The notes under the pieces were generated by a model. It was not told the origin of the DNA. It ran no database searches and saw only the letters and a list, made by a program, of their open reading frames with translations. The position numbers and the translations under genes were made by a program. Source: Marsupella aquatica (taxonomy: Eukaryota > Plantae > Marchantiophyta). From it: a stretch of 64,000 bases of DNA. Positions 2,056-41,892 of this stretch are shown here, one piece after another. Every line of letters starts with the position of its first letter. The stretch's first letter is position 1. The stretch spans positions 15,376,576 to 15,440,575 of the forward strand of contig OZ316896.1 in NCBI GenBank assembly GCA_973895155.1, given 5' to 3'.

Positions 2056-2429
2056 ACCCTCCTTAGGTTGATCGTCGGTATCTACTCTCTCCCCGAGTGC
2101 TTGCCTAAGCAGCTGACAGTAGTTGGCCTCCCGTAGTCGTCTGCCTAGTTCGTGCTCGCAAATGAGCCACCATCTCCTGCAAGCGCTCCTTACCCCTCTC
2201 CTCTGCCGGTCCTTCTTCCCGTTGATCCTTCCTAGCCGCCGACGCTTAACGCGCCCTAACCCTAATCGGGTTTTTCACCCTCAGCCTTACCTCCGGCCTC
2301 TGCCCGGGTTCCATGGTTGCCCCTAATTGTTTATATTTTCCTTGTTTTGTCACTATACTAAGGTGTTCCTAGGGTGCCTTCCTGCTTTACCCACTTAACC
2401 GGCCGAGTGATTCCTGTCTAGGCATCACA
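1..2429 (-). repeat. 3' LTR (partial)
   Basis: Matches 10882-13301 with about 19 differences counted by eye (~99% identity). Identity stops exactly at ...ggcatcaca, which is the TG start on the minus strand. Confidence 0.95.
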
Positions 2430-5684: not shown

Positions 5685-8584
5685 TTAGCCGTCTCATCCA
5701 ATTGGTCTACATCCTTAACTTCCTCCGGAATTGCAGCTAAAAAGGTGGATTCTATTGTAAAGCAGTCCTCGACCTCTTCGTCTTCTTCTTCCAAGTCACC
5801 TTCCATTGGTTCTTGCCATAATCCGCTGGGGGGTACCTCTGGTCCAAAGACACCTTCTTCGGTTAGGTTAGTGAAGCATTCTAACCAACGTACTTCATCG
5901 GCTGACTCCAGTCCACTATCGTACCCATCTACTTCCCTTATGCTTTTCCTACGGTCATCCTTAGTGTCCCAGGATACCGTGATAGAGGGGGTCCCGAAAG
6001 TGAACTGCTTTTTACCCCAATCTTCTATTACCTCGGCTAGGTACAGCCATGGCCTACCAATCAATAGCCGGAATGACGTAGGATTTACCGGCTTCATTAC
6101 TACATAGTTAATGCTAAAGAAGATACCTCCTATCTCTGTCTTGATGCCGGTTAACACTCCCGTCGGAATGACCTGATATCCATTGGCCATGTTCAACACT
6201 CTTCCAGTCATCTCCGGTGTTAGACCCCACCCTTTTGCTGTTGAATCAATCATAATACATACCCCTGATCCTCCATCGATGGGTACCCGTAGTAATAATT
6301 CTCCTTGAATCATTAATGGTAATGCTGGGGCTCCTTGATCTTCTTCTATCATTAGTACGTCGGATCTGGTTGCTACCTTGGGTAATCTCGGCTTGCCGAG
6401 AATAGCCTTCCTTAATTGCTTCCGGAAGTACGGGCTATTTTTCAATAGTTGACCTACTGTTGCCGAGACTCTAGATTCTAGTACATCTTTAGCCAGGTCA
6501 TAGGGAACAATCGGCTTCTCTTCTGGTGGTGTTTCCGTCTTGGATTCGGCCAGTTTTGCCACGCTAGTCTCCACAGCTGTTGGGTCTTCCGAAGCAAACA
6601 ATGCTTTTGCTCGTTTTACATCCTTGGCAATGGCTTCGGTATTCTCCAGGGTTTCTAATTCTCTTAGTTGTTCCTTAACACTAGCCGTAACAGAGGGGTA
6701 GAACAACTTAGGATGATCTCGATTGAAGTCGCTATCTTGTGAAGGATTGGTTTCACTGGTGGGCTCATGGCTTACCTGTATTGCCGGAGCCCTCCCTTCT
6801 CCTTCTGTTGATGTTGACGAAGAGTCGATCCTTTCCTCCGTAACCTTCCCTTTATTTTTGGCCAGCCCATCCCACCTTTCCTTCCTTCTGGTAGATCGAG
6901 TAGAGATCCGGTAGCAATCATGATCTAAATCCTCCTCTGAGAAGGTTGATAGGGCTTCGGCCTCATCATCAGATGGTACGAACTCTGCCTTGGCATCCTC
7001 TTGCCATCCTAGTTCGATGTGGTTGATTTGAACTCCTCCGGGGGTAGTACCTGGCGGTAAGATCTTGATCGGCAAAAGCTTATGATTTGCGGCCAGGCCT
7101 GCCAACCAAGTAGGACATTGCCCTAGCATATGACCTTCCTGTCGGCATCCCATACATAGCTGAGCTGGTTGTCCATCACCCTGTTTGCGTGCATTCGGGC
7201 ATTCTCTAGCAAAATGGCCAGGTTGACCACAATTATAGCACGCCGCAAATCTTTGCACATTCGGCCTAGGAGGTACTGACGGGTTCTGAATAATCCTAGG
7301 ATACATCTCTCCTGGATTGTTCCTTAACCCTGACCACAGAGATGCAGGTCTGTTGGATAGGTCTCGTGCTCCAGTCTCACTGATGCCGAAAACACTATCA
7401 GCGGCATCTCCCAAAAAGTACTCTACTTCTCCCTGACATGGTCTGATCTCGGCCACATGCCGAACATGATTAGTATTAAGCTTAGGACAAGCATCTTTAT
7501 GGTGTCCGGTTTTATAACATAAGGCACACCATACAGAGCTATCCTCCTGTACTACCTTCTTCTTTGGTTTTACCTCTGCAATGATAGCCTTAAGTTGCTC
7601 GGTAAGGGCTACGATGTTATCTGGTGGCTTAGCCTCCATCTTGACTTTCGTCTTCCCTCTCCTTCTGCCCTTCCTTTTCCTAGTTTTTTCTTCTTCAGAA
7701 CTAGAAGATGACTCACTCTTGCTACTCCCACTATCCGAGCTTGACTTATCACTTCTAGACTTCTTGGAATGTTTCTTCTTCTTATCTTTTTTCTTATGGG
7801 GTGATCCCTCCTCTGATGAGGAACTCTCAGACTTAAGTTGTTTCTTCCGGCTTGTGATATCTGCATTAATGTATAATTGAATATCCTTAATTGCTTCGGC
7901 TAAGGTCTCCGGGTTCTCCTTCCTAATTGCAAAACTCATCTTCTGTGGCAAAGCATTCACCAACCATTGAAGTTGCATACCTTCAGATGCATTGGTCTTT
8001 GTACGTCTTACCAGTTTCTGAAAGCGTTGCAAGAACTTCCTGAAGGATTTGTTCTCCTTGAACCGAAGTTGTCCCAACTTCAGCACTGCTAGTTCTAAAG
8101 TTCCAATGGGTCGAAACTCCTTAACAAAGAGTGTTTTGAAGATATCCCAGATGGCTTGATCTTCCACATCTAATGCTCTGTACCAAGGCCTAGCCTCACC
8201 CTTGAACAGGCCGGGAAGAATCTGCATCTTGATGGCCGATTCTCCATTTGCTGCAGCGGTTCCCTCGAAATCATCCAACCATTCGTCCGGATCCTCATCT
8301 CCTCTCCCATGAAATGCCTTGTAATGTATGCGTGACCGTTGGCTCAATCTGGTCCCTGGCCTCTCGTCTGGCCGTGCCTCTGGTTCCCCCATGTCAGTTG
8401 GAGACTCACTTCTCCTTACCGACTCTTCTTCTGGTATGTCTTCTTCGACGCCACTTCCAGTTTCGGAGCTACCAGCTCTTTCTGCCCCTCTCAGTCGCTG
8501 TGTATCATGCCACCCGGCGAGCTGCTGCAGTCGAGCTCTCTCCCGTTGAATCACTCTTTCTTCCCTCGGCGTAAGGTCAGTCAT
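5630..8584 (-). CDS. gag: gag-aspartic protease polyprotein
   Basis: 984 aa. Retrotransposon capsid-like region (FHGRGDEDPDEWL...ARPWY), three CCHC knuckles (CALC..H..C, CYNC..H..C, CMGC..H..C), protease IDGGSG and LLIGRPWL. Confidence 0.92.
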   Translation of the reverse strand: MTDLTPREERVIQRERARLQQLAGWHDTQRLRGAERAGSSETGSGVEEDIPEEESVRRSESPTDMGEPEARPDERPGTRLSQRSRIHYKAFHGRGDEDPDEWLDDFEGTAAANGESAIKMQILPGLFKGEARPWYRALDVEDQAIWDIFKTLFVKEFRPIGTLELAVLKLGQLRFKENKSFRKFLQRFQKLVRRTKTNASEGMQLQWLVNALPQKMSFAIRKENPETLAEAIKDIQLYINADITSRKKQLKSESSSSEEGSPHKKKDKKKKHSKKSRSDKSSSDSGSSKSESSSSSEEEKTRKRKGRRRGKTKVKMEAKPPDNIVALTEQLKAIIAEVKPKKKVVQEDSSVWCALCYKTGHHKDACPKLNTNHVRHVAEIRPCQGEVEYFLGDAADSVFGISETGARDLSNRPASLWSGLRNNPGEMYPRIIQNPSVPPRPNVQRFAACYNCGQPGHFARECPNARKQGDGQPAQLCMGCRQEGHMLGQCPTWLAGLAANHKLLPIKILPPGTTPGGVQINHIELGWQEDAKAEFVPSDDEAEALSTFSEEDLDHDCYRISTRSTRRKERWDGLAKNKGKVTEERIDSSSTSTEGEGRAPAIQVSHEPTSETNPSQDSDFNRDHPKLFYPSVTASVKEQLRELETLENTEAIAKDVKRAKALFASEDPTAVETSVAKLAESKTETPPEEKPIVPYDLAKDVLESRVSATVGQLLKNSPYFRKQLRKAILGKPRLPKVATRSDVLMIEEDQGAPALPLMIQGELLLRVPIDGGSGVCIMIDSTAKGWGLTPEMTGRVLNMANGYQVIPTGVLTGIKTEIGGIFFSINYVVMKPVNPTSFRLLIGRPWLYLAEVIEDWGKKQFTFGTPSITVSWDTKDDRRKSIREVDGYDSGLESADEVRWLECFTNLTEEGVFGPEVPPSGLWQEPMEGDLEEEDEEVEDCFTIESTFLAAIPEEVKDVDQLDETAKWGAVAGTVDFLQALWQS

Positions 8585-8631
8585 TACCTACGCTTCCGTT
8601 CTAACTTCATATCTCACGGCTTAAGAAATGC

Positions 8632-8649
8632 CCCCTCCATCTAGCGCCA
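8632..8649 (-). other. primer binding site
   Basis: TGGCGCTAGATGGAGGG lies 4 nt after the LTR-terminal CA. The cognate tRNA was not determined. Confidence 0.8.
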
Positions 8650-8653
8650 AAAA

Positions 8654-11600
8654 TGTGGTGCGTCCCATGGCTCCCTAAACCCAAGAAACCCCCCAGCTCA
8701 AGCCGATTCCCGCAGGTTTCGTGCTTGGCGAGGCCGTTTCCGCGGCTTAGCGGCATGGGACGCTGCTAACCTTCTACTACTACTATTAACATTTTACACA
8801 CATATACTGGACAGATCCTTCATCGGGTCATGAGATACGTAGTCGGCCTAATATAGGCCTTCCCCTGTCTTCCCCTGTCTTCCCCTCCGTCTTGTTAGGT
8901 ATGTTTGGATTCCGCCGCCGGAATGATCCCCAATAGGCTTGGTTAAGCCGCTAAGACCTCTCTCAGCTCGACACATCCAACTCTCACTCCCCTGCTTACT
9001 TTCCTTCCTTCTGTTGATGTGGGCACTCTTCACACAAGTTAATGCGACACACAAATAGCAAAATGACTCATTCTGACTGAGTCATACCATGCACTTGCCA
9101 TACAAACAGTACATCTCATACACAAGTTCTGCGAACTAAGCCGTGAGGCCAACTCTATTCAGCTCTTAGGCATGAGGAAACATGAATATACACAAGGGTC
9201 ACTGTATGACTAACCGAGAGCTTCTCGTACTACTTGATCCCAGCCCGGCTGGTGCAAACTAAAAACTTGCTAAAGAAGAGGCCCTGAGCTCCCCGCTGCC
9301 CAGGTACTTATCCTGGTAGTGGATCCGCCATTCTTTGCATCGTAAGCCTAATCTACTTAACAGTAATCTACTTGCCCGAATCTACCTATGTACAGCAAGG
9401 CAGGAGCACAAGTGTTGCTCCTACCAGTGGGACCGCAATCCCACTAAGCTAAGTGTCAGGGCCGCTCCTGGTTCTGATCCTAATCCTAAACGTGGAGATC
9501 CGTGCCCGCCCTGCCCACTCACGCCTCCTCCCTCCACGTCCGCCCTCCCTAAAAGGAACGGCGCCCTTGCACCGTCACGACACCGGTGGTGGATCCTCAA
9601 TGGACGCCCCCAACACTTCCTCCTCAGCCACTGCCGTTGGCCCGCCTACTGACAGATTACCTGCCCTTGACCGAGTCAACTCTCCATCGGCCTGACTGGG
9701 TCCACCTTCGGCTTCAGCCTCGACAACTCCCACGGCTTCGGCTTCAGCCACCCCCACGGCTTCGGCCTCAGCCAACCCCACGGCTTCGGCTTCCCCTTCC
9801 CCTAGGGTAGTTGGATCCTTAGCCGTGACCCTGTCTGGGGTCGGTGCTGGGTCTACCTCCTTGATCACCACGGCCTGTGAAGTCGTATTACTCCTTGACC
9901 CTGCAGGTTTCCGCTTCTTCTTCGTTGGTGGCTCGGCAGCTGGTCCCTTCCCCTTCCCACTTACCTCCGGCACTGGTGCAGGTGGGGCGGCTTGTCCTTC
10001 GGCAATTACCACCCCTGGTAACTGGTTTGTCCCAACAGGAGATGGACCTGCTGCAGCTAAGCATTTAAATACTGCGGCTTGTTTCTTCAGCCGCTCTGTT
10101 TGGTTGTCGGCCCGCCGCTGTAGGTTCTCCATCTTCCTCGTGATTTCCTCCAACTCCTCTTGGGTTTCATCCAGGTCCTTACGTGCCCCCTCCAGCTCGT
10201 TTTTGGCCTCCTCCTGCTCCCTGTGGGCTTCCTCCAATTCCTTCTTCAAGGTAGCCTTCTCCTCCTAGGTTGCTCTTAGCTCCTTGTCGAGCTCTGCAAT
10301 GATGACAGACTCCATCTGGTTCATCTTGGCGTAAGTCTGTTCGAGCATCTCGTCCTTCTCCCTTAGGTCGGCCTTGAAGCTGGCCGTCAGGGACGCAAGC
10401 TCCTGCTGCAGCGCCATAATCCCTTGATAGGATTTCCCTAACTCGACTTCCTTCTGCTCAAGGGCTCCGCGGATTTTCTCGAGCTCCCCTTTCAACGCCC
10501 ATTCCTTTCTTTGGGTCTCCGCCATGGCCCGGCTGTTGGCTGTTATGTGGGCCTCCTCTGTATTCTTCAGCTCTTGCTTCCACTTTTCCCTTTCTTTGAT
10601 CGTGTCGGCCAACTCTTCCTGCGTCTGAGTCAGTTTATCCTTGATATTCTGATTATCAGCCTACGCGGCGTCCAACTGCCCCTGCATGATGTTGAGCTCA
10701 TGTCGTTTAATCCGTAGTTCATCTTGGGCTTTCTTGGCCGCCCTTAGATCTTCAATCTCGGCTCCCATCCTCCTAAGCCGCCGAATGACCTCGTCCTTCT
10801 TGCTTCTCTCTAAAGCCACCGCTTCTTCTAATTGGTGCTTCTCCAACTGCTCCCTATGGAAAAAGGGTCCTACCTCCAACTCCTCTCCAAAGATGCCGAG
10901 CGCAAGTTCCCCACACATCTCACCATACTCCATGGCTCTATTCTTAGCGTAGGTGGAGTAAGTAGAAGTGATCGGCATCGCCCATCGTGGCCTCTGCTTC
11001 CAAGCCGTCCTGCGGATCTCTTCAATCGTGGCTAGAGGTTTGCTTCCTTTTTCGGCTAGCCGCCTGATGTCCTCCGGCCAATCTCCTCCTAGTAAATCCT
11101 TTTCCTTAGCCAGGGCGGCCTCTTCCTCCTGCTTGATTCGCTCCTGAAATTCCTGCACCGTCTGTTTTATGCCGTCGAAGCTCGGGGGAGCAACATCTGG
11201 TGGGGGAGACTCAGGGCTACTCTGCTGGTTGGGGTCCCCTCGCACTACCCTTGGAAGTGTGGGGACAAACCGGCCACAGGTCCTTACTCCTGGAACGTGA
11301 TGGTCCGACCCATAGCCGGAATTATCATGGCTGCAGTCCTCCACTGCCTCCTCTACCTCTTGGATTTCCGGCTTCTCCCTCTCCTCTTCCTCGGTAGGAG
11401 CTTCAGGCAATTCTGCCTCAGATTCGGAGCTTGAGGTTCCCACGTACATTCGAACACCTGGCTTGGATTCCGGCCTGATTCTCTCCTTGTCTCCAGCAAA
11501 GGGGTTTTCTCTTGTGAGCCGGTGTAGGCCTACCTCTGTAGTAGTGTCCTGCATTGTTGCCGTTGCCGTTGTCGTTGCCGATGCCGATTTCTTTTCTTTC

Positions 11601-13301
11601 TCCAGTAGTTTCAGCAGACTCTGCATGCCTGGTTGCTGCATCGGCAAGTCTTCCTTCCTGGGCCTAAACACCTGCTCGATCGTAGGACTAACAGGTGGTT
11701 GAGGCTTCTCAGCCAACGGCCTCGGCGTTGGAGCTTCCTCGGGTGCCCTTACCTGCAGGGGAAGTACCGGGGCAAAAGTCTGACCTCTGGCATACCGGCA
11801 CAACAGCGGCATGTGATAGCCAAGCCGCGACACGCTCCCCATGCCGATTACCTGCTGCTCCTCCTTTAAGATCTTCTTCAATTGGTTGAGGAGGTACCCG
11901 TTGTAGTCCCGGCTTGGGTCTGGCCTTTCTGCCAGATAGACCTGTGCCTTGCCGATCTCTGCCCTCGGCAAGTTACAATGCATGGTCACCCGCAAGAAGT
12001 CGATCATCTCTCCTATGTGCGGGTTGGTGCAGGTGTTCCGGAAGAAGCCATTCTTCGTTGATGGCCCGGGGAACGACCGGAACTCCTTGTCAGGCAAGGT
12101 CTTCCTGGTATCAACTTTGGTCTTATTGCCCATCGGCAAGCCAAACACTTCGGCAATCACCTTGGGAGTAAGATAGAAATCCTTCCCATATATCCTCGTG
12201 CAATTGGTCTCGGGTTCCCATGACCCCACGAATTCTAATAGGTCTGACTCCGGTACCTCCGGCTTCAGCCATGGTAATCTTACAAAGGCCTCCAAGCCGG
12301 ATCCGGCCATGAAGCCTTGGTACTTCTTGGTCTGCATGGCCGTAAAGCATGCATCCTCCTCCCGTGCAAAATGTAGTTGCACCTCCACCGGTAGGGTTGC
12401 CGCCCAGCCCTTCCAGGTGTCATCCCTGGTTGGAATGGCCTTGATGGGATCGACCTCCTCCTCTTCGGCTTCTCCCTGCCTCCTGCTCTGCTGCTCGGCT
12501 GGCTTCTTTGGTGCCGCCAACCTCGTTCTTTTTGCCGGGGTGGCTTCATCGTTGACGGCTCCCTTCCTCTTCATCTCTGCTGCCGTGGAGGTTTCTCCTA
12601 GCACCGTTGCCTGGGTCCACCTTTCCGTGCTACCCTTTAATTCCCAGTGTATGTCGTTGCAGTTCTTGATGGCCTCTCGGATGCCGACGACGCTGTCTTT
12701 GCAAAACAGAAGATCGTCGAGTTGATTGGAAGTAGGCGTCCACAGGAACTCGTCCTTGATGAGTTCGCCTCCTAAGAAAGCCGTCTTCTGCAGCTCCCAC
12801 AATCGAGCGAGCTCCTGCCGTTCTCGAGCTGCCCTTTCTGACTCCTCGTCCTCGTAAGTCTTGATGTACTCAGTTGCCCGTTCGAACAGGCATCCCCAGA
12901 AATGTGTCGCTTGATTGACGTTGCTCATACCCTCCTTAGGTTGATCGTCGGTATCTACTCTCTCCCCGAGTGCTTGCCTAAGCAGCTGACAGTAGTTGGC
13001 CTCCCGTAGTCGTCTGCCTAGTTCGTGCTCGCAAATGAGCCACCATCTCCTGCAAGCGCTCCTTACCCCTCTCCTCTGCCGGTCCTTCTTCCCGTTGATC
13101 CTTCCTAGCCGCCGACGCTTAACGCGCCCTAACCCTAATCGGGTTTTCACCCTCAGCCTTACCTCCGGCCTCTGCCCGGGTTCCATGGTTGCCCCTAATT
13201 GTTTATATTTTCCTTGTTTTGTCACTATACTAAGGTGTTCCTAGGGTGCCTTCCTGCTTTACCCACTTAACCGGCCGAGTGATTCCTGTCTAGGCATCAC
13301 A
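8654..13301 (-). repeat. 5' LTR, 4648 bp
   Basis: TG...CA termini on the minus strand, adjacent PBS, near identity with 1-2429, and LINE sequence resuming at 13302. Confidence 0.9.
9575..12928 (-). pseudogene. LTR-encoded accessory ORF, ~1117 codons with two in-frame TAG stops (plant transposon-protein-like domain, low-complexity linker, coiled coil)
   Basis: ORFs 10661..13225, 10265..10612 and 9575..10249 share one frame, separated by TAG at 10661-3 and 10265-7. Motif LLEFVGSW...IYGKDFYLTPKVIAEVFGLP. E/K/L-rich heptads in the C-terminal half and AEAEAVGV repeats near 9710-9795. Confidence 0.8.
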
Positions 13302-26383: not shown

Positions 26384-26415
26384 ATTTTCTTCAACCCTCC
26401 TTTTGGCTGTGGTCT

Positions 26416-26423
26416 GGGGGGGA
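26416..26423 (+). other. polypurine tract of the DNMT/PHD element
   Basis: GGGGGGGA lies ~30 nt after the pol stop, directly before the repeated LTR-like segment. Confidence 0.6.
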
Positions 26424-27135: not shown

Positions 27136-27136
27136 A

Positions 27137-27548
27137 GGGGAGGCAGGCACAGGGAGGGAGGCAAGGCAAGGTGTGACTAAACAGACTGCCAAACGGTCAC
27201 GGGACAACATTGGCTCTCGGGCCGGATGTGTGACGACCAGGGTTTTGGACGCCTGCACCCTTTTGGAAGATGTTCTTTTTGGGCCTTAACCGGGCAGCCC
27301 GTATGGGCACTGGGAGAGTTCTCACATGACGGCAGGGGTTATTAGGGGGTCTCACTTATTTGCCCGTGTGCCCATAAGGGCTGCCCAATTAAGGCCCAAA
27401 ACGGACGTCCGCCAAAAGGGTGCGGGCATCCAAAACCCTGGTCATCACACATCCAGCCCGGGAGCCAACGTTATCCCGTGACCGTTTGGCACCCAGTTTA
27501 GTCGCAATTTGCCTTGCCTCCCTCGCTGCTCCTCCCTCTCCTCTCCCG
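27137..27548. mobile_element. MITE-like foldback element
   Basis: ~175-bp imperfect inverted arms (27137-27314 and 27363-27548) flank a ~50-bp spacer, e.g. tgccaaacggtcacggga / tcccgtgaccgtttggca. No TSD recognised. Confidence 0.7.
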
Positions 27549-28296
27549 AGCTTGATTTATAGGTATCATATGTGTTTAGCCGCCGGAATGCACCTCAAGT
27601 CGAAAGCTGGATCGACCCCGGCTAAGGACTTCTAAGCCTTTGTACTGTCCACCTCCGATCCAGATCTGATAATACGGGAAGGTAACCTGGGCCTAAAACC
27701 ACTATCCACAGCCTACACCCCGTGCACGGCTCGTATAGCGTGTCCGGCCCAACATTCTCTATCCACATACAAGATGTACAATTGTCTCAACATTCACAAC
27801 ATACACGCTTGATTTACACAAAGGAAATGGTGGGGAATAGACTTTTCTTCAGGAGCCGTTATACACATATACACGGTTGACTCGACTTCTTCTGAATACT
27901 CAGGCCAAAGACAAAGAGGTGTACACTACAACGGAGCCTGGCTCCGCACTCGCCCAATGAGCTTAGTCATACCTTCATTCCTTGGGACTTCTATTCAAGA
28001 AGGCCGGGACTCCCAGCACATCCTACGGGCACCCGGTTTTGAACCTAAAATCCCCCCCGCTGCCTCTACCGGGGGTGCACTAAATACTAACTAAGAGCCA
28101 TGGCCAGGAATGGTCACGCACTCAAATTCTAACCTATGCTAATCCTAGCTAAACGTCAGGCTGCTAAAACGGCTTGTCGTTACCCTAAGATACTACACTA
28201 AAAGGTGGTCGACGCCGCTCTAACTACTTTTGGCGCTTGTTGGTAGTGTCCTACTTCTACTGCTAAACCTAAGCTACTCCAAACTATCGGTGCCAC

Positions 28297-28716
28297 TTAA
28301 TGTCTGGCTTGTTTATTAGATCCGCCCGAGTGAGACTTGGATTGGCCGTCCCACTGCCTCCTCAGCCGGTCGACGTCCTGCTTGAGGATTTGGACCTGGT
28401 CCAAGAGAGACTCATTCTCCCTCTTTGTCGTGTCCGTCTCCTCTGTGGCCTCCTGACATGCCTCTTCCAACTGCTGACCGTCGCTCGTCAACTTGGCCAC
28501 CAGTTGGTTCTGGTCAATGGCCTCGTGCTGAAGACTTGCCACCTCCATCTTCAGTGCATCAACCTCGACGGCATCCCTTTGAGCTTGAACCTCGGCCTCC
28601 TCCACATCCTTCTGCCAGATTACAACTTGTTCCTTCAGGCTATCAATCTGGCCCCGGAGCTGTGCAATTTCAGCATCTTTCCCGGCTTCGGCCTGCTCGA
28701 CAATCGCGGAATTCAA
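28297..28716 (-). pseudogene. C-terminal coiled coil of the same decayed LTR-borne ORF
   Basis: QIDSLKEQVVIWQKD...QQLEEACQEA...ENESLLDQVQ...SHSGGSNKQARH matches the end of the 882-aa ORF. Confidence 0.9.
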
Positions 28717-30599
28717 CTACCTTAACACTTAGCTCCAGCGTCGCTGACTCCAACGCCGAGCTTCCTTATGGTCCAGGCCCGGATAGGCCATCTGGGAAGG
28801 ACTTAGCATGGGGAGACTTGTGAGCGACGAGACGTGTCGCTAGTGAAGGCAAGGAGCCAAATTGGTGACACACACTGAGGACTTGGGCTAGCTAAGAGCT
28901 GGTCGGGTCAAGGGGAAATGGGCCGGGCTCAAGGACGACCGTCCGGACCTCCGGATGGACTTTGAGTTCTGAGAGCTTGAGGGTGAGCTCCTCTTGGGCC
29001 CAAGGCCCATGGAGTTGATGCCATGGGCAACGGACGCTTGGGGCGCAAGTTATGGTCCAATCCAAGTTGGGCCGATCGGGGGCCCCAAGCGGCAATGAGA
29101 CCTGAGGGCCTAGGCATGAGCACTGGGTTGGCCTGATCGCGATAGGCTAAGGCACTCCGCTTGCGGATGCCTAACGAGAAAGTTATGAGCGTTGCCAGTT
29201 GATGGCGCGCCCATTATGCGCGATAGGATCCGGGTTGGGGGCCAAATGTTTAGGGACCAAAGCTGGTCCAAGGGTGGCAGGTCTCCAGAAACATATATGA
29301 GGGGAGTGGTGTCTCCGGGGGCTAAGGGCGAACCAAAGTCGTGAGCCGCGGTGGTCGTGACACTAAGGGAAACCGCCAAACAAAAATGACTATATCTTCC
29401 CAACGGGAAGTCTGTTGGAGGACTTCTTGGGTGCGTTGGAAAGCTCTTGAGGAGGGCCCTCCTAAGCTCAGCTGGGTCTGGGGCACCATGGGTTCTCGGG
29501 GTTTGCGGGTGTTAACTCGCCCGCTTGCCAAATCCTGCCGAATAGCAGCCAAGCCGTGTTCAGTCTCCCAAGGGAGCTCGCGTTGGGGAGGCAAGGCCAA
29601 GTAGGTGTGGAGGTGGAGTTCCAAGAGTGCTCGGTCCCTAGACCGTCAATGAGGCGAATCAGGAGTTGCTTGCTAGAGTCGGGGTCATTCTGGTCCCGGC
29701 GTGTTGGGACAAGCTTGGGACAAGCTTTAGGACAAGCTACGCTATTGGGCCATGAGCATGTCCTGGGGTTAGGGTGGTCAGTTGGTGATGGATAGGTACG
29801 AGGGACAACCCAGGCCGCGCCCAAGGAAGGAGTTGTTCTGGACGAACAATGGGCTTGGGTTCAATCTGGTTCTGACTTATGGCATCGGGAGGACCTATCG
29901 CTGACCTATTTAGCAACGTTTGTTGAGCTTGAGTTAGGATGCTAGACTTGGTGAGTTCTAGATCCTAAAGGGTTACTTACCAAGGTGCTTGGTTGCTTGT
30001 GCAGAAAGTGAGGACCGTTGAGTAGCGGTTGTGTAGGAGAGCAAGTGCGGCTTCGTATGGGAGGGGCCGCTGGTGGTGCAAGGGGCACCAGGGTGCTTGC
30101 TCGAGGTATTTCGTGGAGGCGTTTGGGCACCAGGGGCACTTAGGCATGAGTGCTGGGATTGGTGAGGGCGCTGGGTGGCAAGGTCCACCACTTCGGCCAA
30201 GGCTAGCCTGGCCTCAGTGTCGGTGACCTGGGCGAGAGTGTGACGCCAATGACATGGTCCTTATTTTGTAATCTGATTAAGTAGGTTGCTGTATGCAAGG
30301 AGTAGCTATTGATATTGGATAACAATTAGCAAGATGGCAAGAATAAGGGCAATCATGGCGTTAAGAGTTGGGAAATAAAAGCTATGTCGCGGGTGGTCGA
30401 CGATCATATCTCTTTCAATATGTCACCAAATCCGGATCTGTAAAGAGCATTGGAAAGATCTGGTCAAGGCGAGTAAAATCGATATAAAAAACTCGAGAAA
30501 CGGAGGTGTATTAAGAAAGATACGGCCTGATTAGTGTGACGGGTTAACTTGTGGCCGGAATTAGCGGATTCGGCTTCAGTTTCGGGTTAACCCAAGCTC

Positions 30600-30780
30600 G
30601 ACCACGGCTTAGCTTATGTGAGCACGGCTTCAGCTTAGCTCAGGTCAGCACGACTTCAGCTTAGCTTAGGTAAGAACGGCTTCAGCTTAGCTCAGGTCAG
30701 CACGGCTTCAACTTAGCTCAGGTCAACACGGCTTCAGCTTAGCTCAGGTCAGCGCGGCCTCAGGTTAGCATAGGTAAGCT
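30600..30780 (+). repeat. 26-bp tandem repeat, about 6-7 copies, in LTR U3
   Basis: Units of gcacggcttcagcttagctcaggtca. Confidence 0.85.
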
Positions 30781-32739
30781 CGGATTCGGGCTCAACTTAG
30801 GCTAGGTTAGCGGATAGCGGATAGCGGGTAGCGGCCTAACCCGAGACCACGGGTTAGCTCTACTCGGGTTAGATAGGATAGCTAGGTTAACCAAACTCGG
30901 GTTAGCTATGTAACTCGGGTTAGCGCAGCAGTGAGTACCCCCTCTCGGTTGCGGGGGCATAACTCTCTGTGTATTTGACCAAATCGGCTATAATTGACCT
31001 CGTTGGAAAGAGGAGCTCAAGCCGCTTCCAACGCTGCTATACACGCAGAAAATGGTTAAATAGAGAAATCGGGAGAGGAGGCGCAAGCTCGCGAAAACCA
31101 TGGAGGAGGGCCGAATCCGAAGTACATAGCCAATTCGAGATAAAAATAAAGTTACGAGTTAGGGTTCAGTAGTTAGAGATAGTGGCGGCTCTGTTAGGGC
31201 TGGGATGGGGCTCCAACAACGTAGTATCCACCCATTTGGGCTCAGTATGAGAGTATATAGAGCAGCCCCCGGTAGAGGCAAGGGGGGGGGGACTTCAGTT
31301 GTGTGATCTCACTTAGACTGAGCAGCGGGGAGGAGCTCTGTGCAAGCAAGGCTGGACTTGGACGCTGCGTGTTGGGGAGAGCTTGGTTGTGCTATTACTC
31401 AAGGAGTAATCAGCCAAGCTTCACAGCAACGGGTTGCTAGGTTTGCGAGCTGGATTTTGGCTCTTTCTAGTGGGCAGCACAACTAGGTTCTTTTCCCCCG
31501 ATACAGAGCCTTGGTGATAGGTGATGTATTGGTGATTGTAAACTGTGGGGAGGATTTCAATTCGATTTGCGGTGGGCACATTAGGGAGGCTGAGGTACTA
31601 ATTAAGGGGCAGCAGGAGGAGCATTTACAGTTCAGTCTGGCAAGGCTACGTGATCCATGGGGAGTCCCGGCCTTTGTCTGGTGGAGAGCACTAAGGGATC
31701 TATGGCCAGAGCTGAGCTTGCAGGGCAAGCGTGAGGCCGGGCCTCATTGCAGTCTGGGGTAGATCGCCGTTAGGCCTGGTACCAACTTTGAAGTCGAGTC
31801 AACTATGCATGCGTAACTTGACGTTCTGAATTTGGAGGTGTGAGATCTGTATGTGCCCCCAAGAATGAAGTGTAGTGAAGGAGGTTGAGTTCAGGATTGA
31901 GTTTGCAAGGCAAGTACGGGATTGGTTCGAGTCCAATCTGCCGTCGCAATCTGGAGTGAGCCGGGCTCAGGTTCAGGATTGAGCTTACATGGCAAGCACG
32001 GGGCTTGCAGGGCAAGCACATCACAATCTGGAGGAGACAGCCTTCGGCCCTAGTGTTCGGATCAAGTGTTCTCAGTGAACTATTGTGCACATCTTTGAAT
32101 CTAATTGAGTTTTCCTCTCAGGCCTCATTTCTCTCATGGATGTGTGTGTGTGTGAGGCAATCTGAGTGTATGATGGAACTAGCAGCGCCACTGAGAGGTG
32201 TACCGGGTGCATTGAAGCGGGCTGGGTGAGGACTGTCATAGCTCTGATTGTTGAGAGTGGAATGGCAGAGTGGTGGGGCAATGGCTTAGAAGTCCCTAAG
32301 TCGGGAATCAGTCAGGAGTCACTGGTTTATGGGTACATTCCGGCGGCGGAATAGAAACATACCTATGACAGTAAGCATATGTGTGACGCCGCCGGTACGG
32401 CGGTTAATGAGTGATTCAGTCTAACTGCGCTCGGCACGCGCGTTAGGTGGGTCTTAGGCCGCTATTATTAGCATAACGACAGTATTTAGGTAATCATTAG
32501 GGGTAGGACATCATTAGGCAATAAGGGGGACTTCAGGTTCGGGCTGGCGGCGGGTCGCTATTCGCACACCCGGGTTACGAGCGTGGAGGGGCCCCTCCCT
32601 CGGGTCCGTATAACGAACTTAAGGAAGCGGCCACTGACGCACGCTGACTCAGACCGGCGGAGTGGCCGGTACACCACAAGCGTGAGCGGTTCAACCTATG
32701 GGCGTCGAGGAGACGTCGGGGATCGACAAGCCCTCAAAG

Positions 32740-32746
32740 TATAAAA
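32740..32746 (+). promoter_or_regulatory. putative TATA box for the LTR-borne ORF
   Basis: TATAAAAGG lies ~100 bp upstream of the ATG and is conserved in the minus-strand relative (39006-39012). Confidence 0.55.
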
Positions 32747-32847
32747 GGGGAGCCAACCCTTTGTAGTACACCAATCCATCAGTCCGCGCGCCAGCTTCGA
32801 CCCCAGCTCTCTCGTTCTCTCTAGGTTGCCACTACTATCTCCTCTGA

Positions 32848-35496
32848 ATGTCGCACACGATCCTCTCCAGCTCGGCCATTCGATTCTGGACGCAGTTCCT
32901 ATCTACCGGAAGGCATTTGGCCGATTCATTGAAACACGCCAACCCGCGCCGATACGAGATCGAACACGAATACGAGAGAGCCATCCGCCTAGCAGGACGA
33001 CACCACTACGTCCTTAACTTTGACTACCCGTCTCAGAGCGAGCTTTACCGACCAGCTGAGGTATCTGGGTACTTCTTCAACGGAGACAAATATATCGGGT
33101 TCTGGGAAGCATTGCTTCGGCTTCCGGACGAGGTCTTCAATATCCCGGGTACAATCGACCTACAGCGACATCACTTCGACCACATCCCTGCCCAGGTTCG
33201 GGCTGTCATTAACGGCGAGTCCAGTACCAACCGTTCGACAACGGCGTCCGCACTCGCTTCGGAGAACTTCTACCAGCACCTGCAGAGCTTCATGGGAACT
33301 CGGCCATCAACCAACATGACCAACTCAGCCGGACCTGTACCCGTACCCGTGCCCATGCAACCCCAGCCTCAACTTCAGCTTCAGCCTCAGCCGCAGCCTA
33401 GCCAAACCCCACCACCTATCACCCAGCCAGCACAGGTACGCTCCGTCATCAACGCTGTGGATCTTAGCGATGACGACGAGGCTACCCCACCCTTGACCAG
33501 GCGGCCCAGAGGAACAAGCGCGCGGGGGGCCGACACTATATCGTCCCCACCCCCTGCTCTGACCCCAGGAGCGGCCCCAGCAGACAACATGGTGACCGTG
33601 GCCGCCCCGGGCCCGTTACCAACCGCAGTGGCACTCCCCAGGCCCGATCGGGAGGATGGGGAAGTATCACCTTCCCCGAGTCAGTCACGGGGAAAGAAGA
33701 GGAAGGAATCCGCCACTGCATCCGGGTTACCGTTGGCCACGGTAGCCGTAGCCAAGGTGACGATGCATCGCATGGGGGAAAACGTTCACAGCAACATCCT
33801 CCATCCCAAGCATGCGGTGTACCTGAAGACTCAGGGATTTGAGCACCTCGCCTCTCTCCCCTGGAACACTTGCAGGTACTATGGGGAGGACATGACAGAA
33901 TTCGTCAAGAATTATGACGACGTACGTCAACAGACTCGGCTGCGGGGAAGGAATATGTCCCTCACAGAAGAACGGCTCAAGATGATCTTCGGGTTACCCG
34001 AAGGTGATCATCGAGTCGAATCACGGGCTCCCGGGGGCAAGGGGGCCAAGTACCAATCTTCAAGTTTTCCCTCAGAGGGATCAGTAGACAACGGGTTCGT
34101 GATGAGGACCTGCCTCATGCCCGAGATAGCTGAGCGGCTGGAGTTCCAGAGGTACGCTCTCCACATGATGGAACCCCGGGGGGAGATCTCCGCCGCCCAG
34201 GTTATCCAGGTCGAGAACTATCGACCTAGGAAATTAAATGGGCGTCGTACTTCGCTAAGAAATTCCATGAAGAGATGGAGCAGCGAAGGAAGACGCTGTA
34301 CATTGGCGGGAAGGCGTATTTCGCTAGCCACATCGAAATCATTCTTGAGTGGTACGCCCGGTTTGATCGACGAACCCTTCCCCCGCATCAACGTTACAAA
34401 GCTGGTCCCAGCTAGGTGGGTTTTTCTGGCATTTGAGAGACGGCCCCAACCCGAGGCCCGAAGTCCAGTGGACACGCTAGCTTCACCCACCCCACCTCCA
34501 CAAATAGCTGTAATCATAACCGAGGAGGCGCCGAAGGGGTCGGTCGTCGCAACCGTTGATGCGACCCAACTAGCCGGGCTAAGTACAGAAGTTGGTACGG
34601 CAGAGGTCTTACCCGAACCCGGGTCTCCCAAGGACCCGCCGGTGGCAATTCCGGAGAACCGGACATCGCTGCAGGAGGACACTCCAGCCCCTTCCAACGT
34701 TATGTCCCCAGGGCTGGACGTCACTGCCCCGGCCCCTGCGCGTGTTGATGTCTGCCCGTGCCCAAATCCGGACAGGCACAACTTGGACCACCCGGAACTC
34801 TTCGTACAGGGTACGTTTCTGAACGGGCTTCTGGGAGATTTCTCTCATCAAATTGCCCGGGATACCGGGGAGTTCATGGCCCGGAAGGTAGCCTGTTTCT
34901 TCAATCAGGAGTTGGTTGCCGCCGTAAAGGCAGGTCGGGCCCAGTCGGAGGCCCTTCAGAGGATAGAGCGGTACCGGGTGGAGTCCGTGTACCTAAAGAA
35001 TGAAGTGGCGGCTCAAGAGGCTGAGCTTCTGCAACTACGACCCAAGGTTGCAGCCGCCGATGAGTTGTTAGCAAAGGCGTACGCTCTTACCGCCCTAGCC
35101 GAACAGGCCAAAGCTAGGAACGAGGCCGACATTACACGACTCCGGAACCAGATTGATAGTTTGAAGAAACAAGCTGTCACCTGGCAGAAAGACCTGGAGG
35201 AGGCCGAGGAGCGAGCCCAGCGGGACGCGACGGAGATAGCCACGCTGCAGGCCGAGATGGCGCGGCTCCAAACCGAGGCCGAGAAGCAGGACCAGCTGGC
35301 GAGTAAACTGACGAGCGATGCCCAGCAGCTGGAGGAGGCATGTCAGGAGGCAGCAGGGGAGACGGACGCGGCGAGGCGAGAGAACGAATCTCTGCTAGAC
35401 CAGGTCCAGCTCCTCAAAGCGGACAATGACAGGCTTCGAAGGCAGCGGGATGGCCGTTCCCATTCGGGCGGCTCTGGCAAGCGTGCCAGGCATTAG
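32848..35496 (+). CDS. LTR-encoded protein, 882 aa (N-terminal domain, Pro-rich linker, plant transposon-protein-like domain, coiled coil)
   Basis: Open ORF. Its core GFEHLASLPW..MTEFVKNY..LRGRNMSLTEERLKMIFGLP..DNGFVMRTC..RGEISAAQV aligns with GLEAFVRLPW..LLEFVGSW..IYGKDFYLTPKVIAEVFGLP..KNGFFRNTC..RAEIGKAQV of the 4.65-kb LTR. Confidence 0.8.
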   Translation: MSHTILSSSAIRFWTQFLSTGRHLADSLKHANPRRYEIEHEYERAIRLAGRHHYVLNFDYPSQSELYRPAEVSGYFFNGDKYIGFWEALLRLPDEVFNIPGTIDLQRHHFDHIPAQVRAVINGESSTNRSTTASALASENFYQHLQSFMGTRPSTNMTNSAGPVPVPVPMQPQPQLQLQPQPQPSQTPPPITQPAQVRSVINAVDLSDDDEATPPLTRRPRGTSARGADTISSPPPALTPGAAPADNMVTVAAPGPLPTAVALPRPDREDGEVSPSPSQSRGKKRKESATASGLPLATVAVAKVTMHRMGENVHSNILHPKHAVYLKTQGFEHLASLPWNTCRYYGEDMTEFVKNYDDVRQQTRLRGRNMSLTEERLKMIFGLPEGDHRVESRAPGGKGAKYQSSSFPSEGSVDNGFVMRTCLMPEIAERLEFQRYALHMMEPRGEISAAQVIQVENYRPRKLNGRRTSLRNSMKRWSSEGRRCTLAGRRISLATSKSFLSGTPGLIDEPFPRINVTKLVPARWVFLAFERRPQPEARSPVDTLASPTPPPQIAVIITEEAPKGSVVATVDATQLAGLSTEVGTAEVLPEPGSPKDPPVAIPENRTSLQEDTPAPSNVMSPGLDVTAPAPARVDVCPCPNPDRHNLDHPELFVQGTFLNGLLGDFSHQIARDTGEFMARKVACFFNQELVAAVKAGRAQSEALQRIERYRVESVYLKNEVAAQEAELLQLRPKVAAADELLAKAYALTALAEQAKARNEADITRLRNQIDSLKKQAVTWQKDLEEAEERAQRDATEIATLQAEMARLQTEAEKQDQLASKLTSDAQQLEEACQEAAGETDAARRENESLLDQVQLLKADNDRLRRQRDGRSHSGGSGKRARH

Positions 35497-35711
35497 CGGC
35501 GGAGTAGGAATAGATTAGGATTAGGATTGGCTTAGTCAGGCTCTTGGGACAGGCACCTGCCTTAGGTACAGCAGCGCTGCCCTGCTGTCCAGCCTGCGTA
35601 GATTAGGATCTTCTAATAAGACACAGCCGTTTTCCGGCCTGACTGTCAGCTTAGTTAGGACCTTAGTCAGCGAATCTTCGGTGAGAGGACACCTCGTTCC
35701 TCGGCTCTTAG

Positions 35712-35750
35712 TATTTAGTGCACCCCTCGGTAGAGGCAAGGGGGGGGGTT
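35712..35750 (+). promoter_or_regulatory. putative LTR core promoter (TATA-like plus GGTAGAGGCA-G run)
   Basis: The same arrangement occurs at 31254-31292 (+) and 28052-28086 (-). Confidence 0.45.
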
Positions 35751-36712
35751 TTTAGTTTCAGAGTCGGACATCCGCGGGACATGCGGGGAGTCCCGACCTC
35801 TGGGAATGACAGAGTACCAAGGGGAGGGGGTAGGACTAAGCTCGCCGGGCGAGTGCGGAGCCGGGCTCCATTGTAGTGTGCACCCTCGGCCTTGAACCTG
35901 TGCATTCCAGGGCTATCGTGTCAACTAAGTGTACGCATATGTTCCCTTTGTAGTAAAATCCTTTCCCATCATTTTCCTTCGTGTAAATCGAGATTGTATG
36001 CATGTGTGCGCATATGTGTGTGGGTTTCTCGTATATGGGTGGCAGCGCCAGGCCGAACGCACTACCCGAGACGTGCACAGGGTGCAGCCTGCGGGTAAGT
36101 GGTTGCGAGCACGGGTTGAGGACCTGTATCATCGAATCCGGATCGAAGGCGGACAGCACGAAGGCTTAGAAGCCCTTAAGCCGGGGTCGATCCTGCTATC
36201 GACTAAGGTACGTTCCGGCGGCGGAACACAAACCATACCTAGGAGGTGTTCGTATTTAGCAGTATGCGCACTTAGCGCTAGTTTACGAGAATAAGGTGCA
36301 TTACGTGCTTCCCTTCCTGCCCGAACCCTCAGATTTACGAGGGATGTGCCCGTCTAAGCTGAAGTCTGAGTTAAGGCCGAAGCCTACGACGTGACAATAT
36401 GTATAGACCTATGCGCACCATAGCGCTAGGCCCTGTGTGTACGGGCCCGATATGAAGACCCCTTCTCACCAGAACTATCATGAGCGCAGATCTGATCCCC
36501 AACCTTGGTTCCTTGGGATTGAGCTTGGGTGATGTGTGATAGAGTCTTGCTATGATAGTCTGGTGTTAAGGGCATAAACTGGTGTTTACCGGCATTCACA
36601 ACATCCCTTCGTGATCCTCAGGTACAAGGAGATGGTTTTGGCACCCATAGTGACGTTTTTGGTGTTAAGACCCATGTCAATCGCGTGACAGAGAGTGGTT
36701 GTAAGTTGAGGA

Positions 36713-38900
36713 CGAGGTGCTGTAACTCGGTATCCCGGTCCGAGGCTTCATTCAAGAGTTTGGTTACCTCGACCCGATACCGCTCAATCTTTGTTGTGGC
36801 TTCAGCCTGGGCCCGTCCGGCGTTCACCGCTGCCACCAGCTCTGTGCTGAAGAAATAGGCCACCTTGCGGGCCATGAACTCCCCCATTTCCCGACTAATT
36901 TGCTAGGAGAAGTCCCCCAACAGCCCGTTCAAATATGTACCCGGTGCGAAGAGTTCCGGGTTTACTAAGTTGTGCCCACTCAGGTTTGGGCACGGGCAGA
37001 CCTCTACTCGGGAAGAGGCCGGGATGGTCACGTCTAGCTCGGAGGCAGGGTGGCTAGCAAGGCTGAGGCGTCCAGCCAGAGGCGGGGCCAGAGTGTCTAT
37101 TGGCGTTGGTGCCAGGGTTGGTGCGGATGGCATCGCGGTTCCCTCTGCACTGATGGCCGCAGCCATGGGGCCGACTTCCTCTTGCTCAATGGTTGCTGCG
37201 CGGGCTTGGTTTAGGGTCTCTAGGGTTGCAATCACCGCTGAGTCTGGCACCAGCAAAGGTGCCTCAATGGCCTGTGGTGGGGCCAGGGTGGGCGCTACTG
37301 GTGTTGGGGCCCGAGATTCGGGTTGCGGCCGTCGCTCCAGCGCTGGGAAGACCCATCGAGACGGTATGAGCTTGGGCTTATTGAGCCGTGGAAGGGTTCG
37401 GCGATCAAAGCGGGCATACCACTTGATGATAATCTTGATGTGGCTTGCAAGGTACACCTTCCCTCCGAGGTACAGGGTCTTCCTTTTGTGCTCCATCTCC
37501 TCGTGGAACTTCTTGACAAAGAAGGAGGCCCACTTTCTAGGCCGATAGTTCTCGACTTGGATGACCTGGGCGGCGGATATCTTGCCCCGTGGCTCCATCA
37601 TGTGGAGGGCGTACTGCTGGAATTCCAGCCGCTCTGCAATCTTTGGTATGAGTCACGTCCTCATCAGGAAGCCATTGTCCACCGAACCCTTGGGTGGGAA
37701 GCTCAAGGATCGGTACTTTGCTCCCTTGCCTCCTGGGGCCCTTGGTTCCACCCGGTTCTGCCCCTTGGGTAGGCGAAAAATGAGTGTAAGCCGCTCCTCA
37801 TTCAAAGACATTACTCGTCCGTACGCACGGGTCTGTTGTCGGGCCTCGTCAAAGTTCTGGATGAACTCTGTCATATCTTCCCCGTAGTACCTGCAAGTAT
37901 TCCAAGGGAGGGCGGCAAGATGTTTGAACCCTTGGGTCTTCAGATATGCTGCATGCTTCTGATGGAGGATGTTCTTGTGAACATTCTCCCCCATGCAATG
38001 CATGGTCAATTTGACCATGGCTACGGCAACCACGGGTAGACCGGATACTGCAGCCGGTTCCTTCCTCTTTTGTCCCCGAGAGTTGTTCCCCGGGATGGCT
38101 CGTAGAAGGGGACATCTCCCCATCCTCCCTATCCGGTAGGGATAGCATGACCACAGTCGAAACAGGTGTCGAGGCCGCCATGGTCACCGTGTTGTCTATC
38201 GGGGCCATTTCTTGGGTCCGGGTTTGTGTGGGTGGTGATGTATTACCCGACCCATGTTGGTGTGCCCCCGGTGGCCTCCGGACAAGAGGAGGATGAGTTT
38301 CCTCATCCTTGGAACTGATGTTCACTGCGTTCACCATGGATCGTACCCGGAGGGGTGGTGCGGCTGGTGGTGGAGATCGGCTTGGCCGAGACCAAGGTGG
38401 TGTCTGTGAAGGTGCCGATGAGTCGACAATGGTTGTAGCTCGGGGAGGCGCCATTGGATTCAGCAAGTCTGAGGGGAAGTTGAGTGATGTCAGGACAAGC
38501 GACTCGCCCGTATTCGTACTACCAAATTGATAGTTTTTATGAAAGCCTGAACCTTGGCGGGGATATGGTTGAAGTGGTGCCGTTGCAAGTCTATCATGCC
38601 CGGAATTGTGAAGACCTCGCCTGGAAGCCGAAAGAGCGCTTCTCTGAAGCCGAGGTACTTTGTATCGTCAAAGAAGAATTTGACGATCTCGTCATCTCGA
38701 CAGAACTTGCTTTGGAAAGGGAGGCTGAAGTCGCCGTTGTAGTGAGAGCGCCCGACTAGGCGGATGAGTCGTTCATACTGTCTTTCGGTTTTGTACCGAT
38801 GCGGGTTGAATTCGGCAAGCGACTTCGCTAGATGATTTCCAATGGATAGAAATTGAAGCCAAAAGCGAAGGGCCAAACTGGACATAATCATGACAGACAT
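36713..38900 (-). pseudogene. N-terminal and central part of a decayed LTR-borne ORF
   Basis: Fragments 38490..38900, 37849..38466, 37653..38123, 36903..37601 and 36618..36887 align in order to the 882-aa ORF (RFWxQFLS, HPKHAxYLKTQGF, DNGFxMRT). Confidence 0.85.
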
Positions 38901-39373
38901 ACAGGTACCGGCAATGGATGACTAAGGAGAAACTGGGCAAGCTGGGGTCAAAGTTGGTGCAAGGAGTGAATTGCCGATGCAACACAAGAGAATATATGGC
39001 GTGCCTTTTATACCCTAAGGGCTCGTCGGCTGGTCGGCCCCTCCTCTTTTCTGACAGGCCGATTCTTTCACGCTTGCAATGTACGGACCACTCCGCAGGT
39101 CTGGATCAGGGCGTGTCAGAGAGCCGCCCCCTCGATCTGTTATACGGACCCAAGGGAGACGTTCATACCACGCTCGTAACTCGGCGGTACGGGTGGCGCT
39201 CCGCTGTCAACCTGAGCGTAAATGCTTCTTATTGACTAATGATGTCCTAGTCATGATTACTACCTACTTTAGTGTCGTTATGCTAATAACTACGGACTAC
39301 TAAGTCCGTAGCGCGCGTGCTAAGCACGGATGAGGTCGGATTACTCATTACCCGCCGTGCTGGCGGCGTCACA

Positions 39374-41786: not shown

Positions 41787-41892
41787 TTCCTCGTAGGGCT
41801 AGTTCAATAAAATTTCGCAACATTGGTTCGAACATTGGTTCGGGGATACTGATCACACGAGTCGAGAGTGAGCATCATCTACGGTGTGCAAA

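What the first reader, a model, noticed from the sequence alone, without database searches (positions are those of the whole stretch)
32382..36396. Solo LTR that is a self-contained gene cassette (TSD, TATA, 882-aa ORF)
Seen: TG...CA termini, TSD ATATG, TATAAAA ~100 bp before the ATG, an open 882-aa ORF, then a second promoter-like motif at 35712 downstream of the stop. The protein is a distant homologue of the 4.65-kb LTR protein, and a third decayed relative lies at 27559-39373. Inference: a diversified family of ORF-bearing LTRs exists here. LTR-LTR recombination, which normally removes all coding capacity, would leave this gene intact and possibly active in trans.
Basis: partly seen in the sequence, partly recalled or inferred. 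Interest (0 to 1): 0.8.

Follow-up and report, generated by a model that had tools for sequence, protein, structure and literature searches.

The report
LTR carrying VANC-fold anti-silencing gene
A 4-kb solo long terminal repeat of a retrotransposon, likely from a liverwort, carries its own gene, whose family's core domain is predicted to fold like the plant transposon anti-silencing protein VANC21, so the gene would survive when the rest of the element is lost, although this particular copy has a frameshifted stretch in that core and is likely damaged.

Summary
32382-36396 has TG...CA ends, a 5-bp target duplication (ATATG) and an empty site in 3 of 4 sequencing runs. Its gene is homologous to the gene inside both 4,648-bp LTRs of a full Ty3/gypsy element in the same window, so the ORF is truly LTR-internal at family level. 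Against the decayed neighbour the gene shows purifying selection (dN/dS about 0.12) and a conserved upstream TATA box.

(1) The 882-aa frame is open only because two indels cancel. About 49 codons of the conserved core are read out of frame, so this copy is probably not an intact gene.
(2) The core has no Pfam match, but its predicted fold matches only VANC21, the DNA-binding anti-silencing factor of VANDAL transposons (Z 8.4, next 2.1). The model was made from the paired element's copy.

Best reading: a likely liverwort Ty3/gypsy lineage keeps a PMD/DUF1985/VANC-type chromatin accessory gene in the U3 part of the LTR, where solo-LTR formation retains it. Not shown: a paired copy of this exact LTR, expression, DNA binding, trans activity.

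The parts
32382..36396 (+). Element B: 4,015-bp solo LTR, TG...CA
   Evidence: empty site; many different flanks behind 36396
32377..32381 (+). Target-site duplication ATATG, left copy
36397..36401 (+). Target-site duplication ATATG, right copy
32740..32746 (+). TATAAAA, likely promoter of the ORF; conserved in relative C at 39012
   Evidence: function inferred
32848..35496 (+). 882-codon ORF: N-terminal helical domain, Pro-rich linker, basic patch GKKRKE, core domain, linker, coiled coil
32848..33222 (+). Conserved N-terminal domain of about 125 aa with no clear fold match
33700..34390 (+). Core domain; the family model matches VANC21 (DUF1985/PMD type)
   Evidence: model made from element A's copy
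34236..34379 (+). End of the core, read out of frame in the 882-aa ORF between two cancelling indels
35095..35493 (+). Coiled-coil C-terminus
   Evidence: weak coiled-coil Pfam hits below cut-off; selection
35710..35748 (+). TATA-like plus G-rich motif shared with LTRs C and D; likely the main LTR promoter, which would place the ORF in U3
   Evidence: function inferred
36213..36241 (+). Conserved motif near the LTR 3' end, shared by A, B and D (variant in C)
   Evidence: 3 matches, 0 in 100 shuffles
30239..36690 (+). Element D: ORF-less LTR-like element of about 2.4 kb (TSD GAGAG) that hosts B; 26-bp x 7 tandem array at 30607-30787
27560..39373 (-). Element C: decayed relative of B, split by D and B, 3' end missing
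8654..13301 (-). Element A 5' LTR, 4,648 bp, holding a homologous reading frame of about 1,117 codons with 2 in-frame stops
2418..8650 (-). Element A internal region: PBS-like sequence, gag ORF, RT-RNaseH-integrase ORF, PPT
1..2429 (-). Element A 3' LTR, cut by the window edge, 98.9% identical to the 5' LTR and holding the same gene

Best explanation
This is a solo LTR of a likely liverwort Ty3/gypsy retrotransposon lineage whose LTR holds an accessory gene that is predicted to have a VANC/DUF1985/PMD-type core and likely acts on chromatin to keep the element's own LTRs transcribable, and this copy's core is partly out of frame and likely non-functional. Shown: insertion with a 5-bp duplication; the gene lies inside both LTRs of a related paired element; purifying selection; conserved upstream TATA; the frameshifted stretch. 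Predicted: the VANC21-like fold. Inferred steps: the gene lies in U3 upstream of the main LTR promoter and is transcribed from its own TATA; the protein enters the nucleus (basic patch), oligomerises through its coiled coil and binds motifs in cognate LTRs; it then opposes DNA-methylation or Polycomb silencing; LTR-LTR recombination leaves one gene copy that could still serve other family members, perhaps including ORF-less LTRs such as D.
For: Ends, TSD and empty site. Element A has two LTRs 98.9% alike that both include the homologous gene, with PBS-like sequence, gag, pol and PPT between them. B and A share the core (E 8e-18), the N-terminal domain, non-coding 3' sequence (z 6.0 against 30 shuffles) and a 3' motif. 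dN/dS 0.12, bootstrap 0.08-0.17, over 587 codons. 18 of 32 listed differences in the ORF among other copies are synonymous against 25% synonymous sites. Model pLDDT 88, pTM 0.85. The best match among 48,161 PDB chains is VANC21: Z 8.4, rmsd 3.9, 201 of 220 aligned, next Z 2.1; also Z 8.0 and TM 0.55. ESM Atlas leads DUF1985 (0.89) and PMD (0.88). Papers tie VANC, DUF1985 and PMD structurally and show VANC21 binding motifs in tandem repeats.
Against: No paired copy with B's own LTR was seen; none of 9 junction rows behind 36396-36399 begins with a PBS-like run. The fold match is moderate: Foldseek E 0.43, 7-8% identity, Z near the level the tool calls middling. The model is of A's copy, not B's. 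No Pfam DUF1985, PMD or Transposase_32 hit in B, A or 32 relatives. The same fold serves gene silencing and anti-Polycomb roles in host MAIN/MAIL1, so the direction of effect is not given by the fold. B's non-coding parts show no VANC-style tandem array. All LTR gene copies in the window are damaged.
Confidence: 0.55

Rival explanations
1. Same solo LTR and same fold family, but the protein is an Athila/Ogre-type accessory factor with another job (transcriptional activator of the LTR, nuclear import, integration targeting) rather than anti-silencing.
For: Gypsy-encoded PMD-A and Athila ORF proteins are known without a shown function. A shared fold shows no function (note). B lacks repeat arrays.
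Against: The only solved structural neighbour is a DNA-bound anti-silencing factor. Host PMD proteins also oppose Polycomb silencing.
Confidence: 0.27
2. The B family moves as a stand-alone unit: it is descended from an LTR but is amplified without an internal region, or is mobilised by the enzymes of relatives such as A.
For: B, C and D in the window are all unpaired. 0 of 9 junction rows show a PBS-like continuation. The family is abundant (8,747 and 13,539 contigs laid in two runs).
Against: The junction sample is tiny (18 contigs; 4 rows are mixed consensus) and short contigs under-sample junctions. The related A element is a normal paired element. Reverse transcription needs PBS and PPT (established knowledge, recalled).
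Confidence: 0.1
3. The two cancelling indels define a functional variant of the protein with a new 49-residue segment, or they are assembly errors and this copy is intact.
For: Two indels 150 bp apart restore the frame with no stop between them. The 1-base indel sits in a C run.
Against: In the 882-aa frame 22 of 32 differences to C fall at codon position 2 (dN/dS 1.8); in the other frame they fall at position 3. The family-conserved last helices are encoded in that other frame. Contigs of 4 of 4 runs lack the extra bases.
Confidence: 0.08

Closest known systems
VANC21 (DUF1985) of Arabidopsis VANDAL21 Mutator-like transposons, PDB 9lnj/9lnk
   Same: Predicted core fold (Z 8.4, 201 residues); transposon-borne accessory gene; coiled-coil region (VANC coiled-coil oligomers modelled in PMC13547354, passages read).
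   Different: Here it is in an LTR retrotransposon, inside the LTR, as one long ORF, likely in a liverwort. No DUF1985 or DUF287 Pfam hit. VANC is described as dicot-specific. Binding and demethylation are untested.
PMD-A of Gypsy retrotransposons and host MAIN/MAIL1 (PF10536)
   Same: Gypsy-encoded accessory ORF; PMD-C is reported as structurally similar to DUF1985; ESM lead 0.88.
   Different: No PF10536 hit. PMD-A is described from angiosperms (PMC5418596, passages read). The reviews read place extra ORFs in the internal region.
Extra ORFs of Athila, Ogre and Retand (PF03078, PF20167, PF04195; Grande gene23)
   Same: Non-chromovirus Ty3/gypsy with very large LTRs (up to about 5 kb, PMC6317226); domain plus coiled coil; own promoter as for Grande gene23 (PMC7264820).
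   Different: Those lie between LTR and gag or between pol and the 3' LTR and are lost in solo LTRs. This one is inside the repeat, in sense orientation, with no transmembrane helix.
MMTV superantigen ORF and HIV nef in U3 (recalled, no call)
   Same: Protein-coding ORF within the U3 part of an LTR.
   Different: Animal retroviruses, unrelated proteins, much shorter ORFs.

Membership tests
Solo LTR | TG...CA ends and 4-6 bp target-site duplication | tested here: met
Solo LTR | Empty site exists in other copies of the target | tested here: met
   joint 32376>36397 in 3 of 4 runs
Solo LTR | No PBS or PPT next to this copy | tested here: met
   flanks printed continue element D
Solo LTR | Homologous to the LTR of a paired element (lineage level) | tested here: met
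   element A:
Solo LTR | A paired element with this same LTR exists | tested here: inconclusive
   no genome held; 0 of 9 junction rows PBS-like; no metagenome match
VANC / DUF1985 | VANC21-like fold | tested here: met
   Z 8.4, rmsd 3.9, 201 aligned, next 2.1; model of A's core
VANC / DUF1985 | Pfam DUF1985 or DUF287 sequence match | tested here: not met
   none in B, A or 32 relatives
VANC / DUF1985 | Encoded by a VANDAL Mutator-like DNA transposon | tested here: not met
   encoded in LTRs; no transposase ORF in the element
VANC / DUF1985 | Target motifs in tandem repeats of the element's non-coding DNA | tested here: inconclusive
   26-bp x 7 array in D, none in B's non-coding parts
VANC / DUF1985 | Sequence-specific DNA binding and loss of methylation | not testable with these tools
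   needs experiment
PMD-A (Gypsy-encoded plant mobile domain) | PF10536 match or PMD fold | tested here: inconclusive
   no Pfam hit; ESM lead 0.88, family on 14% of members; no PMD structure appeared in the PDB searches
Athila ORF1 / Transposase_32 | Profile similarity to PF20167 | tested here: inconclusive
   hhalign against one PF20167-bearing stretch: probability 0.6%, E 0.09, 35 columns
env-like ORF | Transmembrane helix | tested here: not met
   highest 19-residue hydropathy 1.13 in B, 1.26 in P0154
Ty3/gypsy non-chromovirus (element A) | RT-RNaseH-integrase order, no chromodomain, no extra archaeal RNase H | tested here: met
   Pfam domains
Athila clade (element A) | RT groups with reference Athila elements | tested here: inconclusive
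   tree without a reference set: A groups with liverwort RTs

The most novel reading that the evidence does not exclude
Liverwort Ty3/gypsy elements carry a VANC-like sequence-specific anti-silencing gene inside the LTR itself. Every recombination to a solo LTR then leaves a self-promoted counter-defence cassette that works in trans on the family and on ORF-less LTRs with tandem arrays. The VANC/PMD fold would then be a retrotransposon anti-silencing module far older than flowering plants.
Probability: 0.3. Interest if true: 0.85.

Novelty: new variant of a known kind. Interest (0 to 1): 0.62.

Why it matters
Solo-LTR formation is the usual way plants strip retrotransposons of coding capacity (established knowledge). 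A gene inside the LTR escapes that route and is present twice per element.

Sequence-specific anti-silencing is shown for VANDAL DNA transposons, and whether LTR elements have an equivalent is called open in a 2026 paper (PMC12844716, passage read). The origin of the PMD, transposon or host, is called fully open (PMC5418596), and VANC is read as a dicot capture of MAIN (PMC13547354). A VANC-fold protein under purifying selection in LTRs of a likely liverwort makes both questions testable.

The value lies in the family. This copy is probably a damaged member.

Tried and rejected
- Whole genome: not held, so solo versus paired copies could not be counted.
- Expression: no RNA holder listed among 11 runs; this says nothing either way.
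- Word-indexed protein searches: nothing for B's core (0 of 321 candidates) and nothing among longer proteins with the alignment (0 of 3,210).
- Metagenome scans: no locus by protein (166 pattern matches, none confirmed) or by the LTR 3' motif (0). The alignment was too variable for the locus search.
- PDB by sequence: nothing meaningful. Viral fold library: no match at E<=0.001; best E 6e-3, TM 0.29, unnamed.
- N-terminal domain: model pLDDT 78 from 5 sequences; no ESM hit, no Foldseek match, best Z 5.5 among helical bundles.
- First dN/dS run read the shifted segment in the wrong frame in its pooled figure (0.165); one search corrects it.
- env-like reading rejected: no transmembrane helix.
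- Earlier scan findings: three look-ups, nothing.
- The VANC21 structure paper and Sasaki 2022 were not held.
- Ten paper searches listed no paper whose title or abstract start describes a plant LTR-internal ORF or a VANC-like retrotransposon protein in liverworts. The library lacks most subscription journals, Steinbauerova 2011 was not seen, and no supplements were read (those of PMC6317226 list extra ORFs and may bear on novelty).

Full report
Observation. The element runs from TGTGACG at 32382 to CGTGACA at 36396 with ATATG on each side; a 5-base match at two given ends has a chance near 1 in 1,000. Contigs from 3 of 4 public runs join 32376 to 36397, which is the empty site. Contigs run into many different flanks behind 36396-36399, so the 3' end is a real element boundary. 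The family is abundant: 8,747, 13,539, 392 and 49 contigs were laid in the four runs. In run X4 one contig identical to B over 66 bases has depth 4,999 against about 30 for three longer contigs, roughly a hundred or more copies (rough). Whether these runs are DNA or RNA is not on record.

Setting. The window is plant DNA: a THO2 gene lies to the right, and the closest named relatives of the neighbouring pol are Calypogeia fissa proteins at 69-70% identity, so a liverwort is likely but not shown. B is inserted in D, an LTR-like element of about 2.4 kb with TSD GAGAG and no stop-free stretch above 104 codons in its larger part. D interrupts C, a decayed minus-strand relative of B. Element A, at 1-13301 on the minus strand, is a full Ty3/gypsy: 4,648-bp 5' LTR, PBS-like sequence four bases after it (that it fits tRNA-Asn is recalled), gag, RT-RNaseH-integrase, PPT, and a 3' LTR 98.9% identical over the 2,429 bp in the window. 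The duplicated part includes the extra gene, so in A the ORF is inside the LTR. B and A share the core (33% over 158 aa, E 8e-18), an N-terminal domain, 3' non-coding sequence (z 6.0 against 30 shuffles; a control stretch gave -0.8) and a 3' motif found 3 times in the window and never in 100 shuffles. B is therefore best read as a solo LTR of a related lineage. A paired copy of B's own LTR was not seen: none of the 9 junction rows shown (18 contigs; 2 rows of the table not shown; 4 rows mixed) starts with a PBS-like run. That sample is too small to decide.

Promoters. TATAAAA at 32740 has a counterpart in C at 39012, at nearly the same distance from the ATG (108 and 112 bp). The motif at 35710-35748 is shared by B, C and ORF-less D, where it reads TATATAG. 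I infer that it is the main LTR promoter and that the ORF sits in U3 with its own promoter. Neither was tested.

Selection and damage. Over 587 aligned codons of B and C, pS is 0.65 and pN 0.17, dN/dS 0.12 (bootstrap 0.08-0.17; dS is near saturation). Of the 40 best-supported differences listed among other copies (512 more not shown), 32 lie in the ORF and 18 of these are synonymous, against 25% synonymous sites. This is selection on the lineage, not on this solo copy. B itself has 5 extra bases near 34231 and 1 near 34380 relative to C, and contigs in 4 of 4 runs lack them. Between them, 22 of 32 differences to C fall at codon position 2 of the 882-aa frame and at position 3 of another frame. 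That other frame encodes the helices conserved across the family and present in P0154, an unnamed 906-aa protein collinear with B over its length (28% identity, E 1e-72). So the ORF is open, but its core is scrambled at the end. Assembly error could not be excluded. A's copies are damaged too: two stops in the 5' LTR frame and two indel differences between the LTRs.

The protein. A search of 1.84 billion representatives with B's core gave 33 proteins at E<=0.001. 32 of them were scanned against Pfam and none reached a curated cut-off. Of 10 looked up, 4 clusters carry a name, all Calypogeia fissa, and 6 are unnamed. An alignment of 27 of the 33 plus three window pieces, with A's unbroken core first, gave a confident model (pLDDT 88, pTM 0.85). 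Foldseek found no match at E<=0.001, but VANC21 stood out by TM-score (0.55, E 0.43; all other listed rows 0.17 or less). VIA-align gave Z 8.0 as the only hit among 314 and, independently of Foldseek, Z 8.4, rmsd 3.9, 201 of 220 residues among 48,161 chains with the next at 2.1. The ESM Atlas gave unnamed clusters first (0.90-0.91; Streptophyta where recorded), then DUF1985 (0.89) and PMD (0.88) as leads. The N-terminal domain has no clear match, the C-terminus is coiled coil, and there is no transmembrane helix.

Mechanism. VANC21 binds a 9-base motif amplified in tandem repeats of its own transposon and removes silencing (PMC5735166, passages). PMD-C of MAIL1 is reported as structurally similar to VANC's DUF1985 and opposes Polycomb at DNA motifs (10.1101/2024.09.27.615353, passages). 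VANC and MAIN are structural homologues, and VANC and the Athila domain are modelled as coiled-coil oligomers (PMC13547354, passages). I infer that the LTR protein is a nuclear, oligomeric, DNA-binding factor that keeps cognate LTRs active (0.55). A different accessory role is the main rival (0.27). D's 26-bp x 7 array would suit a target, but B's non-coding parts have no such array, and nothing here tests binding.

Comparison and novelty. Extra ORFs are common in non-chromovirus Ty3/gypsy elements, and LTRs up to about 5 kb are known (PMC6317226, passages). The review PMC7264820 (parts 1-2 of 3 read), PMC11963269 (passages) and PMC11728184 (passages) place such ORFs in the internal region or next to gag-pol. 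Gypsy-encoded PMD-A is described from angiosperms with its ancestry open (PMC5418596, passages). PMC12844716 (passage) calls anti-silencing ORFs in LTR elements uninvestigated for Athila. Passages of PMC12885004 and PMC11257541 added nothing. This is not a VANC by membership (no Pfam match, not a Mutator-like element), but it is predicted to be built like one. The distinctive features are the position inside the LTR and the host lineage.

Verdict. Real feature; new variant of a known kind; interest 0.62. The family is the finding; this copy is likely a damaged member.

Noticed in passing
window 21265-26385 (+): Decayed Ty3/gypsy protease-RT-integrase ending in a Cys/His-rich segment that looks like a PHD finger (label recalled, no call), followed by a G run and a 713-bp region bounded by 176-bp direct repeats (26423-26598, 26960-27135).
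   Followed up: partly
window 20781-21192 (+): The first 412 bp of the D-type LTR (96% identical to 30239-30650) abut the decayed gypsy above, as if joined by a deletion.
   Followed up: partly
window 27136-27542: 407-bp element with 175-bp inverted arms, 85% complementary, just beyond the truncated end of C; MITE-like.
   Followed up: no
window 28711-30233: 1.5 kb inside C's coiled-coil region with no counterpart in B and no long ORF; either a longer ancestral ORF or another insertion.
   Followed up: partly
window 36396, run X2: Four contigs continue behind B's 3' end into nearly the same sequence (agreement 0.92), which is not PBS-like; unexplained. Runs X1 and X2 also share one identical flank behind 36398.
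   Followed up: no
window 5480-5630 (-): Element A's gag ORF and its RT-RNaseH-integrase ORF are separate, about 150 bp apart; how pol is expressed was not examined.
   Followed up: no
window 15035-18514 (+): LINE-type reverse transcriptase ORF with zf-RVT domain.
   Followed up: no
window 41314-50335: THO2 exons on the minus strand; 469 bp duplicated (41318-41786 and 47934-48402, 98%), with a Kelch-repeat ORF running into a GC-rich 21/16-bp repeat array (about 42800-44100) between the copies.
   Followed up: no
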